Part shown: piece by piece, positions 5,100-22,831 of the stretch
Position numbering within the stretch: the stretch's first letter is position 1
Layout of the letters: each line of letters opens with the position of its first letter
From: a virus
Taxonomy: Duplodnaviria; Heunggongvirae; Uroviricota; Caudoviricetes
DNA length: 22,831 nt
Virus record (IMG/VR): IMGVR_UViG_3300028789_000005
Strand: one strand, 5' to 3'
The notes under the pieces: model-generated
Told to the model about the DNA's origin: nothing
The model's input: only the letters and a program-made list of their open reading frames with translations
The model's database searches: none
Program-made: the position numbers and the translations under genes

Positions 5100-6161
5100 C
5101 TAGGTTGGCGATGTGGCCGACAGCAGGCCATCCAGCAGGTTGGAGGCGAACGTGGTACTGCAGCCGGTTACTTCCGTGTACCAGTCGTTTCCACGTGAGT
5201 CGCCGACATGCCTTACTTGTACGACGAACTGCAGCGTGTTGAGCGGGTTCTGGAACTGACCTACTTGAATTACTTGTTGCGTTATGAGCAGGTTGCCGGC
5301 CAACTGCACTACTTGCACTGGCAGTGTCACCTTGAGACGTGGGTCTAGCAGCACCGTGAATATGATTCCTTGCGGAGTTTGGCGAGGAGTGCCTATGATA
5401 CTCTGCGTAGTTCCGGCCGGCAGTCCCGACGCTACAGTTCCTATTGGAGTGGGCAATGCATAGATAAGATCAGGAGCAGGCGTGGCTAGGCCAGAACCGA
5501 TATTGCCGATCTCGGTCATGTACGCCGCATTGCCTTTGCGAAACGTTGACAGGTTCTGGTCGGATGATACGATGTCCAGGTAGTCGCCCATCGTATGGAA
5601 CACGGTGTTTCCACGCGGATACTGCTTGGCTGTCAATGCTGCTTGCGCATGCTCGCTCAGCGTGGCTGTATTCTGACTGTTCTCCATAGGAGGCAGACCA
5701 ATGTTGCCGGCCATCTGTGTAAGCAGCTGAGCCTGCTGCGCGTACGGGCCGATGGAGAAGGCCACCGGGTTGGCCATGGATATCGGATTGGCCACGCAGT
5801 GCAGTGTTACGCGCGTGTCGATGACGTTCTCTTCATCCAGCAATACCTGGAATATGGGGCCGTCCCACACCACCGAACTCAGCGCTGGGCCGGTCTGGAA
5901 ACCCGCCTTAAGCCTGACCTTAGTAGCCGCCAGTACTATGTTGTTGATTGTCTCCTGACTAAGGTTGTATACGACGATGTCAGCGTACCACCAAGGAGAC
6001 GGTATCGTGGACTGCACTATTTCAAACGTTATACGCAGCGATTCCGGCTCCCATGCGTTGGTGGACACGGTAAGGTCTTGGTCTACGCCGTTGGCGTCCG
6101 TGTACGTTATGATCAGCTCCCATGCCTGCCCGAAGAACGGAATCTGAGATGTGGTACTCAT
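5100..6161 (-). CDS. Baseplate hub protein
   Basis: Start moved to ATG 6161 (ATGA overlap with the upstream stop; 353 aa). Motifs ADIVVYNLS..T, V.LKAGFQ...VWDGPI, LLDPRLK and HVGDSRGNDWYTEV. Confidence 0.8.
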   Translation of the reverse strand: MSTTSQIPFFGQAWELIITYTDANGVDQDLTVSTNAWEPESLRITFEIVQSTIPSPWWYADIVVYNLSQETINNIVLAATKVRLKAGFQTGPALSSVVWDGPIFQVLLDEENVIDTRVTLHCVANPISMANPVAFSIGPYAQQAQLLTQMAGNIGLPPMENSQNTATLSEHAQAALTAKQYPRGNTVFHTMGDYLDIVSSDQNLSTFRKGNAAYMTEIGNIGSGLATPAPDLIYALPTPIGTVASGLPAGTTQSIIGTPRQTPQGIIFTVLLDPRLKVTLPVQVVQLAGNLLITQQVIQVGQFQNPLNTLQFVVQVRHVGDSRGNDWYTEVTGCSTTFASNLLDGLLSATSPT

Positions 6162-17003: not shown

Positions 17004-18050
17004 TTAGATACCGTCTAAATAGTATGCAGTCGTGGTCCGTTTGTAGATTACCTGACTGATACAGCCGGCAAACATAGTCTCGTACGCCCCGCCTGCGCGG
17101 GTCGTGGGGACGGTGATGGCCTGGATGAACGGCTGCGGCACCTTGAGGTACACGCTCTTCTTCGAGTTCTTGTAGAAGAACCCGCGATCAAGCCCGTTGC
17201 CGCCCGTGGGCGATCCCGGAGCCGCGGTGTTGCCGGAGCCGGTACCGCTGATCCATGGGTTGGGCAGGAAGTTGATCTTGAAGTCGATGCCGTGGTGCGC
17301 CGCGACGCAGTTCTTCTCGACGTACTCGATGGTGCTCATCGCCACGGGCGCGCCGCCGATTGCGATCGGCTGCGTGAGCGTGGCGAACTGGGTGTACGGG
17401 ATCAGCAAGCGGTCCGCCATGCCCTCCTCGGCCGAGTAGCCAGAATTCTGCACGGTCTGATTCAGCGCGAAGTTGATGTCCGCGAGAATCTCCTGTGGAG
17501 TCTTCTTGGCCCACGTGGTGAAGGTGGAAGCGCCAGCCGGAGCGACCGACTCGAAGATGTTGGGGTTGTTGATCAACCCGGCGTCTCCGAGGAAGCCAGC
17601 GTAGGTGACGAAGTCCAAAGCCTTGCCCCATGTGGTCTCGACCGACTCCTCGTACAGCTCTTGCAAGCTGAACGGCGGTGCCTGGCCGGTGCGAAGGGAA
17701 GTCTCCATACGGCGCAGGTCGATCCAGGTGATGGTCATGCCCATCGCCCATGTGTACGTGCGCCAGATGCCCTTCTGGATGTCCGCCTGTGCTTCGGGGA
17801 TGTCCGTGTTGTTGGTACCCTGGAGTCCGTAGGACGAGGTACCAGTGGAGGCGTAGTTGGAGCTGAACGCGGAGATGAACTCCGGGAAGCCTCCACCTAC
17901 TTCAACAGCGATGTCGCGCTTGTGCGTGACAGCCTGCAAAGGACGGACGAGGTCCGTATCGATCAGTTCCAGTTGGCTCTGAAGGAACGCCAGACCTGAC
18001 GCGCCAGAGGCATCGAATGCCCGTACGCGATTTGGGATAGTACGCTTCAT
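17004..18050 (-). CDS. Major capsid protein (DUF2184 family, HK97 fold)
   Basis: 348 aa with AFLQSQLELID, GLINNPN, WAKKTPQEILADIN and ADRLLIP motifs. AGGAG RBS; follows the DUF2213 and decoration genes. Confidence 0.9.
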   Translation of the reverse strand: MKRTIPNRVRAFDASGASGLAFLQSQLELIDTDLVRPLQAVTHKRDIAVEVGGGFPEFISAFSSNYASTGTSSYGLQGTNNTDIPEAQADIQKGIWRTYTWAMGMTITWIDLRRMETSLRTGQAPPFSLQELYEESVETTWGKALDFVTYAGFLGDAGLINNPNIFESVAPAGASTFTTWAKKTPQEILADINFALNQTVQNSGYSAEEGMADRLLIPYTQFATLTQPIAIGGAPVAMSTIEYVEKNCVAAHHGIDFKINFLPNPWISGTGSGNTAAPGSPTGGNGLDRGFFYKNSKKSVYLKVPQPFIQAITVPTTRAGGAYETMFAGCISQVIYKRTTTAYYLDGI

Positions 18051-18059
18051 TGGTTCTCC

Positions 18060-18857
18060 TTACGCCGCGTGGCGTCCCTTGAGTGTGATTTCCAGGATGT
18101 TGTTGACGTCCAGGTTGCCGGTACGCGCGACCACGTCGGTCAACGCAACCAAGTTGCTGAACGTTACGGGCGTGCCAGCCGCGACCGCCTGCGTGGTGGG
18201 AAGGCTGAGTACGATATTCACCGTACCGCCGCCCGACACGACATAGGTGCCAGCTTGGATGCCAGCGCCGGAAACGACCTGACCGTTCTGCGTGTTGGTC
18301 GCCGACGCAATGGTGAGCGCCGTGGCGTTGACAGCAGCAGTACCGGTCGTGCTGAACAGGTCAGTAGCAGCGGGGTTGGTCTCCCAATCGCCGACTGTGC
18401 CAGCGGTTACGGCACCGTTCAGAACCACGCGGGTGTAAACCTGCGCCTGTGAGTTGGGTGCGCCGACGGCCAGCGCGATGGTGCCGCTGCCGCGCTCCAG
18501 AACCTCAGCCATCTGCAGGTTGGCGTAGTAGCCGACCTGCTGGATGCCAGGAGCCTGACCGGCGGGGTAGGTGAGCTGCGTCTTGACCTCGCGGACGGCC
18601 ATACCGGCGAAGTACGCGGCAACGAGGCCGATGTTCGCGGCCGAATGGGCTACGAAGTCGGCGACGGAGTCGAAGTAACCACCGAGGTTGTTCGGAATGA
18701 TGACCGCAGGGTCGCCGAAGTTGAGGTTGTTGGTGGTCGTGTAGGGAACGAATTCACGCGCCGTAATGACGCGATCGCCGAACCGGCTGACCGTACCCTG
18801 GAAGCCGTTATTCGGTCCTGTTACACCGATAACTTGGCCAAAGCTGTACTGTGGCAT
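18060..18857 (-). CDS. Head decoration / cement protein with an inserted beta module
   Basis: 265 aa with GFQGTVSR, LNFGDPAV, FAGMAVREVK and VLERGS motifs; TAATG-coupled to the DUF2213 gene. Confidence 0.8.
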   Translation of the reverse strand: MPQYSFGQVIGVTGPNNGFQGTVSRFGDRVITAREFVPYTTTNNLNFGDPAVIIPNNLGGYFDSVADFVAHSAANIGLVAAYFAGMAVREVKTQLTYPAGQAPGIQQVGYYANLQMAEVLERGSGTIALAVGAPNSQAQVYTRVVLNGAVTAGTVGDWETNPAATDLFSTTGTAAVNATALTIASATNTQNGQVVSGAGIQAGTYVVSGGGTVNIVLSLPTTQAVAAGTPVTFSNLVALTDVVARTGNLDVNNILEITLKGRHAA

Positions 18858-20590
18858 TACTTACCTCCCTTGTGCGCGGAGTTGTAGAACTCCTGCATCT
18901 TAGTCATGGGATCAGCCTTACCGTCAGCGGCGCGGGCACGATCGGGGTTGGGGTTGCGCGGAGCCTTGTCACGGGCGCGCGCCGAGCCGGCAAACGCACC
19001 GTAGCTACCACTGGATGCACGGCTGGACTTCTTAACCGCATCAAGCGCGCGGTTGAAGGAGGCCTTCAGCGCCTTGTCGTTGGAACGGGCGACGCCCGGA
19101 CGCAGCATGCGGAGAACGGCGTTCACGCTGTCGGCCGCGCGGGCGCGGTCGTTGGCGCGGGCGTCCTTGCCCTTCTTGTCCTCGACGTCCTCTTGGTCAT
19201 CGTCGGAGTCGGGGTCGGGACTTTCACCTTCCTCGTCGTCGATGTCTTCCTCGCCGCTCTCGTCCATCTCCTCGCCGGGGCACTCCTCGGAGTCGTGCGC
19301 CTCGCCGCATTCCTCGCACTTCTCAGCGTCCTTGCCACCCTTGAGCGCATCTTCGAGCTCGGACGAATCAGCTACATCGTCAACGTGCTCGGGCTCCTTC
19401 TCTTCCTCGTCTAGGAACTCGTCAAGCAACTCCTTGAGCTCTTCAATGTCGGCGTCCTTCGCCTTGGAGTCCGAAGCCTTCGCATCGGTTGCCTTGGCGT
19501 CGAGTGCACGGTCGAGGGCGTCATGCATCTTCTTCCGTGCATCTGCCACTTTAGCGTCCTCCGCTTTTGGTTTGATTTCGTTTTCCTTTAGCGCCTCGGG
19601 CAATTCTCCGTCCTTAGCGCCCTTCTTGTCTTCAGACTTGAATTCGTTCTTCTCGGTGTCCTTGGGCTCCTCGGCGTCGTCGTTCAACGCTGCGGCAGCA
19701 TCAAGAACCTCCTCGGGGTCAGCATCGGTGGCTCGCGCCATCTCAATGAGATGCTTTCCTTTGAAGATGCGAAGCCAGTCTTTCTTCGGCTTTGTCTCGG
19801 CCACGTTTTGCTTCTCCTTCTTGGGGATTGGTGGAAGTACTATTGGTTTGTACGTGGTTTCGATGACTTCCACCGACGCAGTAGGTTCTAAGGGTAAACT
19901 TGTTAGCACTGCGGTCTCCACGCTCAGCTCTTTGACTTCAGCGAGTGGGGCAGTGGTCTTGATGTCTTCCGGCGCGGCGTCGACGATGGATACGAAGTCA
20001 CCGGCTCGGCCGTTGGGAACCACGGCGTTGTGGTTTCCCATCATTCCGCACTGCACGATCTTGTCGCCCATGCGGTCAATCGAGAAGTCGTAGCCGAGAC
20101 TTATCTCCCGCGCCGTCTTGTTCTTGACCTTCTCAATCAATTCGTGGTCGCTGATGATGAGGTCGGCGATGATCGGCCACTCCCCGTCCTCCAGCGGCTC
20201 CGCACCCTTGCGCACGTTCTGTATATGCCCGCAGGTTAGCTTCTTGAAGTTCTTCGGATCGACGAACTCGCCGTTGGGAGGATGGCCATTGGTGATTGGT
20301 TTGCCGTTCAGCGACGCGAGGAACTCCGGATGGAAGACCTCCTTCTCCGAGCGGTAGAGCTCGATGGTGGCGTGCGGGTTGCTCATGTCCACGCCGAGGT
20401 CGGCCGCGCGCTCTTGCGGTAGGTCCTTGATGGCGTACTTCTGCCAACCGGTGCGCGCGATGGGGCACCCGACGACCACGAGGTAGCCCTCGTCCGTCAT
20501 GTGGATGTTGTCGGTGAGCGGGCTGGTCAGGTAGCCGTGTGGCGATTTGGTCGCGGAGAGGACGGAGAGTTCTTCCTCTGTCTCGGTCAT
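18857..20590 (-). CDS. DUF2213 prohead protease-like domain fused to an acidic scaffolding region
   Basis: 577 aa. N-terminal TDEGYL..VGCPIARTG.Q.Y, GKPITNGHP, REISLGYD and NH.AVVPNGRAG motifs; C-terminal D/E/K/A-rich region. Confidence 0.9.
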   Translation of the reverse strand: MTETEEELSVLSATKSPHGYLTSPLTDNIHMTDEGYLVVVGCPIARTGWQKYAIKDLPQERAADLGVDMSNPHATIELYRSEKEVFHPEFLASLNGKPITNGHPPNGEFVDPKNFKKLTCGHIQNVRKGAEPLEDGEWPIIADLIISDHELIEKVKNKTAREISLGYDFSIDRMGDKIVQCGMMGNHNAVVPNGRAGDFVSIVDAAPEDIKTTAPLAEVKELSVETAVLTSLPLEPTASVEVIETTYKPIVLPPIPKKEKQNVAETKPKKDWLRIFKGKHLIEMARATDADPEEVLDAAAALNDDAEEPKDTEKNEFKSEDKKGAKDGELPEALKENEIKPKAEDAKVADARKKMHDALDRALDAKATDAKASDSKAKDADIEELKELLDEFLDEEEKEPEHVDDVADSSELEDALKGGKDAEKCEECGEAHDSEECPGEEMDESGEEDIDDEEGESPDPDSDDDQEDVEDKKGKDARANDRARAADSVNAVLRMLRPGVARSNDKALKASFNRALDAVKKSSRASSGSYGAFAGSARARDKAPRNPNPDRARAADGKADPMTKMQEFYNSAHKGGK

Positions 20591-21858
20591 ACGGGTTGAA
20601 CCTCCCTCTTGTCGCTGGCCTTGGCTTTGTCTGAGGCCTTCAAGTCTGAGTCTTTGAACGGTTGCCTTGCTCTCTTCAACAGCTCGACTTCACGGGCTCG
20701 TTGTTCTTTCGTCAGCGAGTATTTGCCGTTTGGACCGCGATACGACTTCAACTCGGCAAGTTCTTTCTTCTCCTCGGGTGTGATGGCATCCCCCGTCGGC
20801 ACCGGATCCGGCACGGCGGGAGTGGCTGGATTGTCCACAGGAGGAGGTCCGCCGGTGTCGTCCTTTGCCTTAGCACGGCATTTTCCACACAGGAAATTGT
20901 CTCCCGAAGTTTTGGCACCGCAGTTTTCACAAGCTCCGGCAGCATCACGACCATGCGCGTCATATTGTGCGGCGTCTTTGTGCGTAGAACTGTCATTAGC
21001 AGGACGGCCACAAATTGCGCATCGGTCATCTTTGTCGGGCACGTAGGCGTGTAGTGCACCATCTTTGGCGCGCGCGAACCCCGGACGAACCGTCTTGCCT
21101 TCGACGTGAACCTGCTCTCCGGCGCGGGTGCGCTCCAGCGCAGTACGCAGCGCGATGTCAACCGAGTCGCACACGCGGACGCGTCCGATGCCGGGGTGGT
21201 CGTACTGCGTGTCGAACGCGGACTGACAAAACATGATGCCATCCTTGGCCTTCTGCTCGCCAGCTTGATCGCCCGCGCGACGGTAGCCACCGGCTGCGGC
21301 GCGGTATGAGTCTAGGGCGCGAGCGCGGTCGCCGCCGATCTCGTACTGTGCGGCGCGGAAGAGGTGGTCGGCCGGTTCGGAGCCACTGCGCTGCTCATTC
21401 AGGTTGGTTCGTAGCATGTCTGTCGCCTTTGTCTTTTCTTTCGAATCGCGCATCTTCACGAAACGGCCGCGGTCGCGCGAACGCCCGTCGGTGGTCTTGG
21501 TGGCCTTGCGCTTCTTGTCCATTTCGGCGTCGGTAAGGAACCGCAAGCGAGCCTCTTCCAGCTTGGTTCGCTTGTACTTGGACAGCAGCGAGTTGATTTC
21601 CTTCTCGAGCTCGGGCAGCGTCATGTCGTCGGGGTCGGCCAGGTCGGACGCGTACGAGACCTCGTTGCGCTCTCCGGAGGGAAGCGGAACCAGGCTGGAG
21701 GTCTTGATGGGGACGGGGAGGACGTCCTTCGCCCTGTGCCGGTCCTGCGACTGCGTCAGGCCCTCCTCATGCTTCGCCAACGCAAGGGCGCGCTCGGGGT
21801 CGGCCTCGCCGACCGGCTCGATGTCGTCGCCCACTCGTCTTCCGTTCTTCATGGGCAT
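20587..21858 (-). CDS. 423-aa modular charged protein with CxxC modules and repeated [KR]AxD motifs
   Basis: Start moved to ATG 21858 (AAGGAGG RBS, 5-nt spacer). The ORF-track extension to 22131 runs through the tRNA and is not credible. ATGA overlap with the DUF2213 gene. Confidence 0.8.
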   Translation of the reverse strand: MPMKNGRRVGDDIEPVGEADPERALALAKHEEGLTQSQDRHRAKDVLPVPIKTSSLVPLPSGERNEVSYASDLADPDDMTLPELEKEINSLLSKYKRTKLEEARLRFLTDAEMDKKRKATKTTDGRSRDRGRFVKMRDSKEKTKATDMLRTNLNEQRSGSEPADHLFRAAQYEIGGDRARALDSYRAAAGGYRRAGDQAGEQKAKDGIMFCQSAFDTQYDHPGIGRVRVCDSVDIALRTALERTRAGEQVHVEGKTVRPGFARAKDGALHAYVPDKDDRCAICGRPANDSSTHKDAAQYDAHGRDAAGACENCGAKTSGDNFLCGKCRAKAKDDTGGPPPVDNPATPAVPDPVPTGDAITPEEKKELAELKSYRGPNGKYSLTKEQRAREVELLKRARQPFKDSDLKASDKAKASDKREVQPV

Positions 21859-21878
21859 GACGCCCTCCTTTTCTATGT

Positions 21879-21952
21879 TGGTTTCGGCCCAGAGATTCGA
21901 ACTCCGATTCAACGGATCAAAACCGTTTGTCCTACCATTGGACGAGGCCGAA
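21879..21952 (-). tRNA. trnQ: tRNA-Gln (anticodon TTG), 74 nt with encoded CCA
   Basis: Full cloverleaf: acceptor TTCGGCC/GGCCGAA, D stem GTCC/GGAC, anticodon stem AACGG/CCGTT with loop TTTTGAT, T stem CGGAG/CTCTG with loop TTCGAAT, then A-CCA. Confidence 0.93.
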
Positions 21953-22305: not shown

Positions 22306-22620
22306 CTACAGCAGTCCCTTGAACGCACCGACAGTGTACAGCCGGTCTATCTCCGCCTGCCACCTGCGTCCGTGCGTGCAGTCGCCGCTCGAGATGTGCG
22401 CCATCTCGTGCAGCAACGCCTGCTTCCACAGCGTGCGGCAGATGGCGCGCATGGTGTCCACTTCGATGATGTGGTTTTCCCTGTCCGTGAAGTCGCAGCA
22501 GGCGTGCTTGCCGTCCAGTGGACGAAACAACACGTCCGTATCTAGCGGCAGTTTGTTGTCGAAGTACAGTTCGTTGTACTTCAGGAACGCGCGGCGAAGT
22601 TTCGTGTGGGACAGGTGCAC
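22306..22620 (-). CDS. SprT-like zinc metalloprotease domain protein (104 aa)
   Basis: Start moved to GTG 22620 (TAAGGAGG RBS). Motifs FLKYNELYFDNKL, LLHEMAH (HExxH) and HGRRW. Confidence 0.8.
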   Translation of the reverse strand: MHLSHTKLRRAFLKYNELYFDNKLPLDTDVLFRPLDGKHACCDFTDRENHIIEVDTMRAICRTLWKQALLHEMAHISSGDCTHGRRWQAEIDRLYTVGAFKGLL

Positions 22621-22631
22621 GAGCGGCCTCC

Positions 22632-22831
22632 TTAGAAGCGTTTCTCGTACAGCGCCAGGTTGTAGAACGGGAAGAACTCCACGGCGAATCGCGTCACGGT
22701 GCCAGTCTCGTCCTGCGTGATGGAGACGACGCTGTACCCGACGTGGGCCTGCAATTTCAGCTTGCGCATGAACAGGCTCTGGTCGGTGGTGCATCCCAGC
22801 TGCAAGGCGTGCACCTCGCGCGGGTAGCCGT
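22632..22831 (-). CDS. C-terminal fragment of a probable metallophosphoesterase-like phage protein (5'-truncated)
   Basis: The frame stays open to the window edge: ..GYPREVHALQLGCTTDQSLFMRKLKLQAHVGYSVV... The GC..DQ..FMR....AHVG pattern resembles phage calcineurin-like phosphoesterase C-termini; the catalytic motifs would lie outside the window. Confidence 0.5.
   Translation of the reverse strand, partial: GYPREVHALQLGCTTDQSLFMRKLKLQAHVGYSVVSITQDETGTVTRFAVEFFPFYNLALYEKRF

What the first reader, a model, noticed from the sequence alone, without database searches (positions are those of the whole stretch)
20587..21858. Candidate protease-processed cargo polyprotein coupled to the prohead protease gene
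Seen: a 423-aa protein made of short, dissimilar blocks: a helical LPELEKEINSLL block, a TPR-like HLFRAAQYE...ALDSYRAAAGGYRRAG block, an H-x8-CxxC-x8-H unit (~20978-21051), a CxxC-x9-CxxC ribbon (~20878-20931), a Pro-rich linker and a terminal helical hairpin. It contains nine [KR]AxD motifs, and several of them (RAKD, KATD, KAKD, KASD), plus looser xxD|A/S sites, fall at block boundaries. The gene overlaps the DUF2213 start (ATGA). Established: head proteases also process internal proteins that are ejected into the host (T4 IPs and Alt; phiKZ inner-head proteins). Inference: a beads-on-a-string precursor that is packaged via scaffold-like motifs and cut into several mini-effectors, such as anti-defence or DNA-binding peptides. 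I do not know a described system with this design, but I cannot search.
Basis: partly seen in the sequence, partly recalled or inferred. Interest (0 to 1): 0.8.

Follow-up and report, generated by a model that had tools for sequence, protein, structure and literature searches.

The report
Protease-cut modular head protein precursor
Just upstream of its capsid-maturation protease, an uncultured soil phage encodes a 423-residue chain of mini-domains joined by floppy linkers that carry the protease's apparent cutting motif; this would let one gene load several small proteins into the capsid, but cleavage and packaging are inferred, not shown.

Summary
The gene (window 20590-21858, minus strand) encodes 423 aa with exactly nine [KR]AxD motifs, against about 1-2 expected, and it overlaps the DUF2213 gene start by ATGA.

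The motif behaves like the cleavage site of the phage's head protease:
- 26 of the genome's 37 copies lie in four head proteins: this protein, the DUF2213 protein's tail, the capsid protein's N-terminal leader and the portal-InPase linker.
- RA.D is the most enriched gapped tripeptide in the tails of 120 DUF2213 homologues.
- The DUF2213 domain folds like the T4 gp21 and herpesvirus capsid proteases.

AlphaFold gives separate small domains joined by low-confidence linkers, and six of the nine motifs sit in those linkers.

Relatives exist only in metagenomic phage contigs, always directly upstream of DUF2213. They share a conserved backbone (two peptides plus a TPR/MIT-like core) and differ by inserted, sometimes reordered, motif-bounded modules. 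Two modules match stand-alone small phage proteins.

So "protease-processed modular precursor" is well supported by inference. "Ejected mini-effectors" has no direct support; a scaffold-like factor that is degraded is the main rival. I rate it a new variant of the T4/phiKZ internal-protein theme. The test needed is proteomics or a co-expression cleavage assay.

The parts
20587..21858 (-). Gene for the 423-aa modular protein (P0002), stop codon included
   Evidence: The family consensus also starts MPL/MPM.
21863..21870 (-). Shine-Dalgarno AAGGAGGG, 5 nt upstream of the ATG
   Evidence: Sequence read.
21742..21828 (-). Conserved peptide block A (residues 11-39, DDIEPVG...SQD), with one short helix
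   Evidence: Present in 35 of 65 family members as module D. Alignment. Helix 21-31.
21724..21735 (-). RAKD (residues 42-45), a putative cleavage site in a disordered linker. Relatives carry inserted modules right after this point.
21643..21723 (-). Conserved Pro-rich peptide block B (residues 46-72, LPVPIKTS..LVP.PSGE...YASD)
   Evidence: Low pLDDT, so probably extended.
21499..21618 (-). Long single helix (residues 81-120), a variable module found in only 4 family members
21418..21429 (-). KATD (residues 144-147), a putative cleavage site just before the core. It is conserved across the family as [KR]A[TK]D.
21061..21417 (-). Family-defining core (residues 148-266): TPR/MIT-like three-helix unit plus a small alpha/beta part. 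It has invariant C211, H221 and C230, holds three internal motifs (180, 194, 203), and ends with RAKD at 263-266.
   Evidence: pLDDT above 90 over residues 160-262. Invariant columns. Only generic TPR/MIT fold matches. This is the region matched in all 51 library hits.
20860..21060 (-). Variable Cys/His module (residues 267-333): H-x9-CxxC-x9-H and CxxC-x10-CxxC, ending in KAKD
   Evidence: Shared only with the 89%-identical relative P0003. Weak double zinc ribbon hit, E 0.0025, below the Pfam cut-off.
20629..20859 (-). Pro-rich linker plus helical hairpin (residues 334-410), ending in KASD
   Evidence: The part from about residue 355 onward is replaced by an unrelated module in a contig that is 99.95% identical upstream.
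20590..20628 (-). C-terminal tail (residues 411-423, KAKASD-KREVQPV). It ends in the family-wide EVQPV and contains the Shine-Dalgarno of the protease gene.
18857..20590 (-). DUF2213 protein: capsid-maturation protease domain (about residues 20-205) plus an acidic scaffold-like tail, with 13 [KR]AxD motifs
   Evidence: Pfam and PHROG hits. Motif counts. Fold like T4 gp21.
18012..18023 (-). RAFD at residues 10-13 of the major capsid protein, the likely removal point of a short N-terminal leader
   Evidence: In relatives the leader varies from 10 to 22 aa, then comes a conserved R-x-F-D followed by A[AS]GA[ST]G.
21879..21952 (-). tRNA-Gln (anticodon TTG) immediately upstream of the gene

Best explanation
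The gene encodes a modular precursor that belongs to the head-assembly module. It is made together with the DUF2213 capsid-maturation protease, since the two genes overlap by ATGA and the protease's ribosome-binding site lies inside this gene's last codons.

Proposed mechanism:
1. The precursor enters the prohead.
2. The protease cuts it after the Asp of [KR]-A-x-D in the disordered linkers. Small residues are preferred after the cut and a basic or small residue before the motif.
3. In this phage that would release about six pieces of roughly 1.5 to 13 kDa: peptide A; peptide B with a long helix; the TPR/MIT-like core; a Cys/His module; a Pro-rich helical hairpin; and a short tail.

The backbone shared by all relatives (peptides A and B and the core) most likely mediates incorporation or an assembly role. 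The variable modules are passengers that are swapped between phages.

Shown here: the motif statistics, the modular architecture, the synteny and the protease fold. Inferred: cleavage, packaging and the fate of the pieces.
For: (1) Motif enrichment in this genome. There are 9 copies here against 0.9-2.0 expected, and 13 in the protease protein against 1.0-2.1. 26 of the genome's 37 copies lie in four head proteins that make up about 7% of the coding residues.

(2) The motif sits where cleavage is expected.
- In the capsid protein it follows a length-variable leader and precedes a conserved sequence.
- In the portal its only two copies lie in the linker to the C-terminal InPase domain. All four portal relatives examined have a motif directly before that domain, and this phage has RSFD there.
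- In the protease, seven sites, six of them in the tail and one (residue 198) at the end of the protease domain, are positionally conserved in at least 58% of 113 homologues.

(3) The signal appears in an unbiased scan. RA.D is the top-enriched gapped tripeptide in 120 DUF2213 tails (443 observed against 47 expected) and KA.D is enriched 4.7-fold. The total is 821 against 104. Flanking preferences are alike in the tails and in this family.

(4) The enzyme is plausible. The DUF2213 domain model (pLDDT 88) matches T4 gp21 best (Z 11.6), then three herpesvirus proteases (Z 8.7, 7.0, 5.2); the next hit scores 4.8. His103, Ser164 and His187 are invariant. Related proteases cut after A-x-E (SPN3US gp245, PMC10052503).

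(5) Architecture. AlphaFold gives separate confident elements joined by low-confidence linkers that hold 6 of the 9 motifs.

(6) Family. In every related locus with enough flanking DNA (about 20), the order is target, DUF2213, 265-aa protein, capsid protein.
- Lengths in those loci run from 423 to 975 aa, and from 216 to 1001 aa among the library hits.
- Homology breakpoints lie within 6 aa of a motif twice as often as by chance (1628 against 791 +/- 69).
- Cutting at the motif gives recurrent modules, several of them found on either side of the core in different proteins.

(7) Two modules match stand-alone small phage proteins: phrog_2423 (52-position profile) and phrog_7884 (66-position profile). 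In Serratia phage MTx the phrog_2423-type protein is a 69-aa gene sitting between the MuF gene and the prohead protease gene.
Against: - There are no protein-level data of any kind; the phage is known only from metagenomes.
- Three of the nine motifs, which are also among the most conserved residues of the family, lie inside confident helices of the core. The motif is therefore not purely a linker signal.
- Part of the conserved C-terminal KEVQPV is explained by the embedded Shine-Dalgarno (AGGGAGGT) of the protease gene.
- No experimentally determined cleavage site for any DUF2213 protease was found in the literature searched.
- The most distant DUF2213 homologues show no enrichment of the motif.
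- The low confidence of the Cys/His module may reflect a shallow alignment rather than disorder.
Confidence: 0.55

Rival explanations
1. It is a scaffold-like or core-like assembly factor, comparable to T4 gp22/gp67/gp68 or to the long propeptides of giant-phage head proteins. It helps build the prohead, is then chopped at the same motifs, and the fragments leave the capsid before or during DNA packaging. Nothing functional is delivered to the host.
For: - It sits between the portal and protease genes, and its motif density resembles that of the protease's scaffold-like tail.
- It has an invariant backbone and a long helix.
- In SPN3US, propeptides with several motif copies are cut into small pieces and mostly leave the head (PMC10052503).
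- No effector-like domain was detected.
Against: - The protease protein already carries a 370-aa, very acidic scaffold-like tail (net charge -37), whereas this protein is mildly basic.
- Cultured phages with the same protease and capsid types lack any such gene (Klebsiella phage Mulock), so it is not a core assembly part.
- Folded Zn-type modules, and modules homologous to stand-alone proteins that are swapped between near-identical phages, are not what a disposable scaffold is expected to carry.
Confidence: 0.25
2. The motif is not a cleavage signal here. The protein stays intact as a multi-domain head-associated or regulatory protein, and [KR]AxD is a feature of charged flexible linkers or a by-product of repeated recombination at similar linker sequences.
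For: - Three motifs are structural parts of the folded core.
- Linkers rich in K, R, A and D raise the chance of such tetrapeptides; the Markov expectation is double the shuffle expectation.
- A mosaic junction lies inside the gene.
Against: - The enrichment survives a dipeptide-aware null.
- The same motif occurs at the capsid protein's leader boundary and before the portal's InPase domain, in proteins of quite different composition.
- It is absent from the 265-aa neighbouring protein and from the other structural-region ORFs listed (g9-g30, including sheath, tape measure and fibre-region proteins).
Confidence: 0.12
3. It is chiefly a partner or regulator of the protease. The conserved core displays three substrate-like motifs and holds the co-translated protease, as a pseudo-substrate or tether, until the prohead is built. 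The other modules are incidental.
For: - Translational coupling to the protease gene.
- The three core motifs are invariant or nearly so across the family.
- TPR/MIT-like folds commonly bind peptides.
Against: - This is pure inference; no interaction test was informative.
- Most DUF2213 phages do without such a partner.
Confidence: 0.08

Closest known systems
T4 internal proteins (IPI-III, Alt) and core proteins processed by the gp21 prohead protease
   Same: Head-module proteins are carried into the prohead and cut by a gp21-fold protease at a short motif ending in an acidic residue. The capsid protein, the scaffold and the protease itself carry the same motif. The DUF2213 domain here matches gp21 best (Z 11.6).
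   Different: T4 substrates are separate genes, each with one N-terminal targeting peptide removed at (L/I)xE. Here one gene strings several mini-domains together, with the motif ([KR]AxD, ending in Asp rather than Glu) at each junction. There is no sequence similarity to any T4 internal protein.
phiKZ / SPN3US inner-head (ejection) proteins cut by gp175 / gp245 after A-x-E
   Same: The motif has the same shape, A-x-acidic, with several copies per substrate. The portal and capsid proteins are also cut (PMC10052503).
   Different: In those phages the cuts remove and shred N-terminal propeptides from large single proteins. They are not described as releasing several folded modules from one chain. 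The genome here is about 101 kb, not a jumbo phage.
Polyvalent proteins of phages and conjugative elements (Iyer et al. 2017, PMC5512222)
   Same: Many domains sit in one polypeptide that is thought to be packaged and delivered. The mosaicism is extensive. In this same phage the portal carries a polyvalent-type InPase domain, as reported for BcepF1.
   Different: Polyvalent proteins are large, built from recognisable enzymatic domains, and proposed to be cut by their own zincin-like MPTase domain. This protein has none of those domains and no peptidase of its own. Processing would be done in trans by the head protease.
Stand-alone small head-module proteins (phrog_2423, for example Serratia phage MTx gene 029)
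   Same: They have the same sequence family as the N-terminal module of many relatives of this protein, and occupy the same genomic slot between the MuF/portal genes and the prohead protease gene.
   Different: They are separate 50-70-aa genes, not part of a chain. The protein in this window lacks that particular module.

Membership tests
Prohead-protease-processed internal head proteins (T4 IP/Alt, phiKZ inner-body type) | Encoded in the head-morphogenesis module of a phage that has a capsid-maturation protease | tested here: met
   The gene lies directly upstream of, and overlaps, the DUF2213 gene in this phage, and has the same position in every related locus with enough flanking DNA.
Prohead-protease-processed internal head proteins (T4 IP/Alt, phiKZ inner-body type) | Carries the sequence motif that the phage's own protease cuts, shared with capsid, scaffold and portal substrates | tested here: met
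   [KR]AxD is enriched here and in the protease tail, and occurs at the capsid protein's leader boundary and in the portal-InPase linker. That this motif is the cleavage site is itself an inference.
Prohead-protease-processed internal head proteins (T4 IP/Alt, phiKZ inner-body type) | Actually cleaved, and present inside proheads or virions | not testable with these tools
   The phage is uncultured and no proteomic data exist.
Prohead-protease-processed internal head proteins (T4 IP/Alt, phiKZ inner-body type) | Ejected into the host, with a function there | not testable with these tools
   No module matches a known effector family.
Polyvalent proteins (Iyer et al. 2017) | Two or more of the catalogued effector domains in one polypeptide | tested here: not met
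   Pfam scans of this protein and 54 relatives found none; there were only weak zinc-ribbon, MIT and DUF6496 hits.
Polyvalent proteins (Iyer et al. 2017) | An own MPTase (zincin-like) processing domain, in the protein or next to it | tested here: not met
   No such hit was found. The weak SprT-like hit of the upstream ORF disappears in the full 394-aa protein, which has no HExxH and looks like a metallophosphoesterase.
TPR / MIT helical domains (core, residues 147-221) | Fold similarity well above background, and a sequence-family match | tested here: inconclusive
   Z 9-11.4 to many unrelated TPR/MIT proteins, within the range the tool gives for generic helical arrangements. Foldseek E is 0.19 or worse. 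MIT Pfam hits appear in only 2-3 relatives.
Capsid-maturation proteases of the T4 gp21 / herpesvirus assemblin fold (applies to the neighbouring DUF2213 protein) | Assemblin-like fold | tested here: met
   gp21 Z 11.6 (128 residues aligned, rmsd 2.8). VZV, HCMV and KSHV proteases score Z 8.7, 7.0 and 5.2; the next hit scores 4.8. These are also the top Foldseek rows, with weak E-values.
Capsid-maturation proteases of the T4 gp21 / herpesvirus assemblin fold (applies to the neighbouring DUF2213 protein) | Conserved Ser/His catalytic residues | tested here: inconclusive
   H103, S164 and H187 are invariant in 53 homologues.

The most novel reading that the evidence does not exclude
This phage group uses a general cargo grammar. 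Any small protein bracketed by the [KR]AxD linker and attached to a head-targeted carrier is loaded into the prohead and freed by the gp21-like protease. The carrier can be this protein's conserved backbone or the portal's C-terminus. Modules are traded between phages like cassettes, so one gene serves as an evolvable rack of packaged and possibly injected mini-proteins.
Probability: 0.3. Interest if true: 0.75.

Novelty: new variant of a known kind. Interest (0 to 1): 0.6.

Why it matters
If the inference holds, three things follow.
- It gives the first candidate cleavage specificity, after Asp in [KR]AxD, for the widespread but uncharacterised DUF2213 class of phage head proteases.
- It shows a compact way for a mid-sized phage to package several small proteins from one gene. 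Until now this theme has been documented mainly as separate genes in T4 and in jumbo phages.
- The motif-bounded, exchangeable modules would be a natural template for loading chosen small proteins into capsids, and a place to look for new small anti-defence or DNA-binding proteins.

If instead the pieces are simply discarded, the finding is an unusual, fast-evolving scaffold accessory of modest interest.

Tried and rejected
- Searches with the whole protein found nothing: tblastn and megablast against 50,697 phage records, PHROGs, a PDB sequence search with the family profile, and a scan of one genome per prokaryote species (330 pattern hits, none confirmed). The only Pfam hit was a double zinc ribbon below the cut-off.
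- Fold searches of the whole-protein model gave only generic TPR/MIT-like matches for residues 147-221 and nothing for the rest. The atlas search gave TPR-like leads below its reliable score.
- Complex prediction with the capsid protein and residues 1-80 of this protein returned no verdict (score 0.00, partner poorly folded). It says nothing either way.
- hhalign of the family against the protease tail gave a 30-residue similarity at E 0.01 and probability 4%. The shared RPG..AR..D string occurs in only 3 of 120 protease tails. I rejected this as chance.
- I considered the upstream 394-aa ORF as a possible SprT-like peptidase that might do the processing. I rejected it because it has no HExxH, no Pfam hit at full length, and phosphoesterase-like motifs.
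- The literature search for an experimentally mapped DUF2213 cleavage site was unsuccessful. The DUF2213 papers are unrelated. The E217 cryo-EM paper says only that the first 65 capsid-protein residues are invisible. The P7-1 atlas mentions unseen internal proteins gp68/gp69 without processing data.
- A first module clustering with loose settings collapsed into one cluster and was discarded. The stricter run is the one used.
Full report
**What is there.**
The finding's coordinates hold a minus-strand gene (ATG at 21858, stop at 20587-20589) for a 423-aa protein, P0002. A strong Shine-Dalgarno sequence precedes it, and a tRNA-Gln gene lies just upstream. Its last codons overlap the start of the next gene by ATGA.

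The window lies in a 101,166-bp viral contig rated complete. The genes downstream of the target, in order, are:
- a 577-aa DUF2213 protein, which PHROGs labels a head maturation protease;
- a 265-aa protein with no family match;
- a PF09950 major capsid protein;
- homing endonucleases and neck/tail genes.

The terminase, MuF and portal genes lie at the other end of the contig. The portal carries a C-terminal InPase domain.

**The observation.**
Two Cys/His spacings were off by one residue. There are exactly nine [KR]AxD motifs, against 0.9 expected from residue shuffles and 1.96 from a first-order Markov model (p about 1.5e-4).

**Is the motif meaningful?**
In the whole genome I counted 37 copies in about 29,600 residues of ORFs. 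Of these, 9 are in this protein, 13 in the DUF2213 protein, 2 in the capsid protein and 2 in the portal. The other structural-region ORFs inspected (g9-g30) have none.

The positions of the copies are informative:
- In the capsid protein and nine relatives, a leader of variable length and sequence (10-22 aa) ends in R-x-F-D, and a highly conserved sequence follows.
- In the portal, both copies lie in the linker between the portal domain and the InPase domain. In four related portals a motif sits directly before that domain; this phage has RSFD there. The linkers also hold variable inserts.
- Across 120 DUF2213 homologues there are 821 copies against 104 expected, nearly all in the tails.
- An unbiased scan of gapped tripeptides in those tails ranks RA.D first (9.2-fold) with KA.D at 4.7-fold.
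- Seven sites (six in the tail, plus residue 198 at the end of the protease domain) are positionally conserved in at least 58% of 113 homologues.
- Flanking preferences are alike in the tails and in this protein's family: basic or small residues before the motif, and Ala, Ser or Gly after the Asp.

**Is DUF2213 a protease?**
An AlphaFold model of the N-terminal domain (53 sequences, pLDDT 88.3) matches T4 gp21 best (Z 11.6), followed by three herpesvirus capsid proteases (Z 8.7, 7.0, 5.2). The next hit scores 4.8. Foldseek ranks the same proteins on top, though with weak E-values. His103, Ser164 and His187 are invariant. Proteases of this fold in T4 and in giant phages cut after (L/I)xE or A-x-E (PMC10052503), so cutting after A-x-D is a small step. 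I found no experimental cleavage data for any DUF2213 enzyme.

A cultured Klebsiella phage with the same protease type (Mulock) shows by eye a different recurring Asp-ending string (TGD) in its tail, and TFD at the capsid protein's N-terminus. I treat that as a lead only.

**Architecture of the protein.**
AlphaFold with 31 family sequences gives pTM 0.31. The confident elements are separate:
- helix 21-31;
- helix 81-120;
- a core at 160-262 with pLDDT above 90;
- a helical hairpin at 361-398.

They are joined by low-confidence stretches at 1-17, 40-58, 66-75, 124-143, 263-278, 291-333 and 402-421. Six of the nine motifs lie in those stretches. Three lie inside the core helices, and these three are among the most conserved residues of the family. 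The core's helical part resembles TPR/MIT domains only generically.

Cutting at the six linker motifs would give pieces of about 1.5 to 13 kDa. The protein as a whole is mildly basic, unlike the very acidic protease tail.

**The family.**
Relatives occur only in metagenomic or viral contigs:
- 41 clusters in the word-indexed search;
- 51 representatives among 1.8 billion proteins;
- none in cultured phage records or in prokaryote genomes.

In every related viral locus with enough flanking DNA, the order is target, DUF2213, 265-aa protein, capsid protein. The capsid proteins are 75-93% identical, whereas this gene keeps only its core and ranges from 423 to 975 aa in these loci (216 to 1001 aa among the library hits).

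The alignment shows a constant backbone (peptide A, peptide B, the core, often a Pro-rich piece) with unrelated inserts between these parts. Nearly every junction reads [KR]-[AG]-x-D, often followed by x-[LV]-x-P-V. Three analyses back this up:
- Homology breakpoints fall within 6 aa of a motif in 1628 of 5207 cases, against 791 +/- 69 for randomised motif positions.
- Cutting 65 members at the motif yields recurrent modules, and several of them occur on either side of the core in different proteins.
- Two modules match stand-alone small phage protein families, phrog_2423 and phrog_7884. The first is found in 439 phage records. In Serratia phage MTx it is a 69-aa gene lying between the MuF gene and the prohead protease gene, that is, in the same slot.

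A contig that is 99.95% identical over the 2 kb upstream loses all similarity from about codon 355 to just inside the protease gene, and then continues at 91% identity. A mosaic junction therefore lies inside this gene.

**Interpretation.**
The best reading is a modular substrate of the head protease. It is co-produced with the enzyme, taken into the prohead and cut at its linkers.

What remains open is the fate and function of the pieces.
- In favour of passengers that stay in the capsid: the modules are folded, exchangeable and have stand-alone homologues; the same phage hangs a polyvalent-type InPase domain on its portal behind the same motif; and cultured phages with this head type lack the gene.
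- In favour of a disposable assembly factor: the backbone is invariant, the motif density resembles that of the scaffold-like tail, there is precedent for shredded propeptides, and no effector-like domain was found.

Part of the conserved C-terminal EVQPV is explained by the protease gene's ribosome-binding site.

**Comparison and novelty.**
Functionally this resembles the T4 internal proteins and the phiKZ/SPN3US inner-head proteins. The differences are that several mini-domains are strung on one chain, the putative site ends in Asp, and the phage is of ordinary size.

It is not a polyvalent protein in the sense of Iyer et al.: it has none of their domains, no MPTase, and processing would be in trans.

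I rate it a new variant of a known kind. It is interesting mainly because it proposes a specificity for DUF2213 proteases and a cassette-like way to load capsids, and both can be tested with a simple co-expression assay.

Noticed in passing
Outside the window: genome G000:C1:96370-98826 (= L002:10371-12827, + strand): The portal protein (818 aa) is fused to a C-terminal InPase domain (PF18823). The linker holds the only two [KR]AxD motifs of the protein. Relatives have a motif directly before the InPase domain and variable inserts in the linker, one with a Cys-rich ribbon.
   Followed up: partly
window 20579-20797 (minus strand), compared with L037:4062-4311: There is a mosaic junction inside the gene. 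A related contig is 99.95% identical over the 2034 bp upstream, has no similarity for about 220 bp (the last ~69 codons plus the first 4 codons of the protease gene), then continues at 91% identity. In that relative the two genes do not overlap.
   Followed up: partly
window 21879-21952 (minus strand): A tRNA-Gln (TTG) is wedged between a 97-aa ORF and the modular gene inside the head operon, with almost no spacer.
   Followed up: no
window 19997-20008 (minus strand; DUF2213 protein residues 195-198): The protease domain ends in GRAGD. R195, A196 and G197 are invariant even in distant homologues. This could be an autocleavage point that frees the enzyme from its tail, or it could be part of the fold.
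   Followed up: partly
L036:5001-5210 (Serratia phage MTx gene 029) and 439 phage records: A widespread 50-70-aa protein family (phrog_2423, MPL..GK...KQAVAIA) sits between the MuF and prohead protease genes in cultured myophages. The MTx copy has KAED right after the conserved part, and the MTx capsid protein has KALD at residues 20-23.
   Followed up: partly
L034:3689-4891 and 5401-5520 (Klebsiella phage Mulock): The tail of the DUF2213 protein of this distant cultured phage repeats TGD about five times, and its capsid protein starts MPMTFD. This hints that an Asp at the cut site may be general for DUF2213 proteases, with lineage-specific upstream residues.
   Followed up: no
window 22306-22794 and beyond (genome 1337-2521): The 394-aa ORF upstream gave a weak SprT-like hit when truncated by the window edge. 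At full length it has no HExxH and instead shows metallophosphoesterase-like motifs (GDDHEG, GHYH) behind a helix-turn-helix-like N-terminus.
   Followed up: partly
genome 114-773 and 99919-100662 (outside or at the edge of the window): Two paralogous genes (phrog_5845) with identical N-terminal stretches lie near the two ends of the contig. No exact terminal repeat was found.
   Followed up: no
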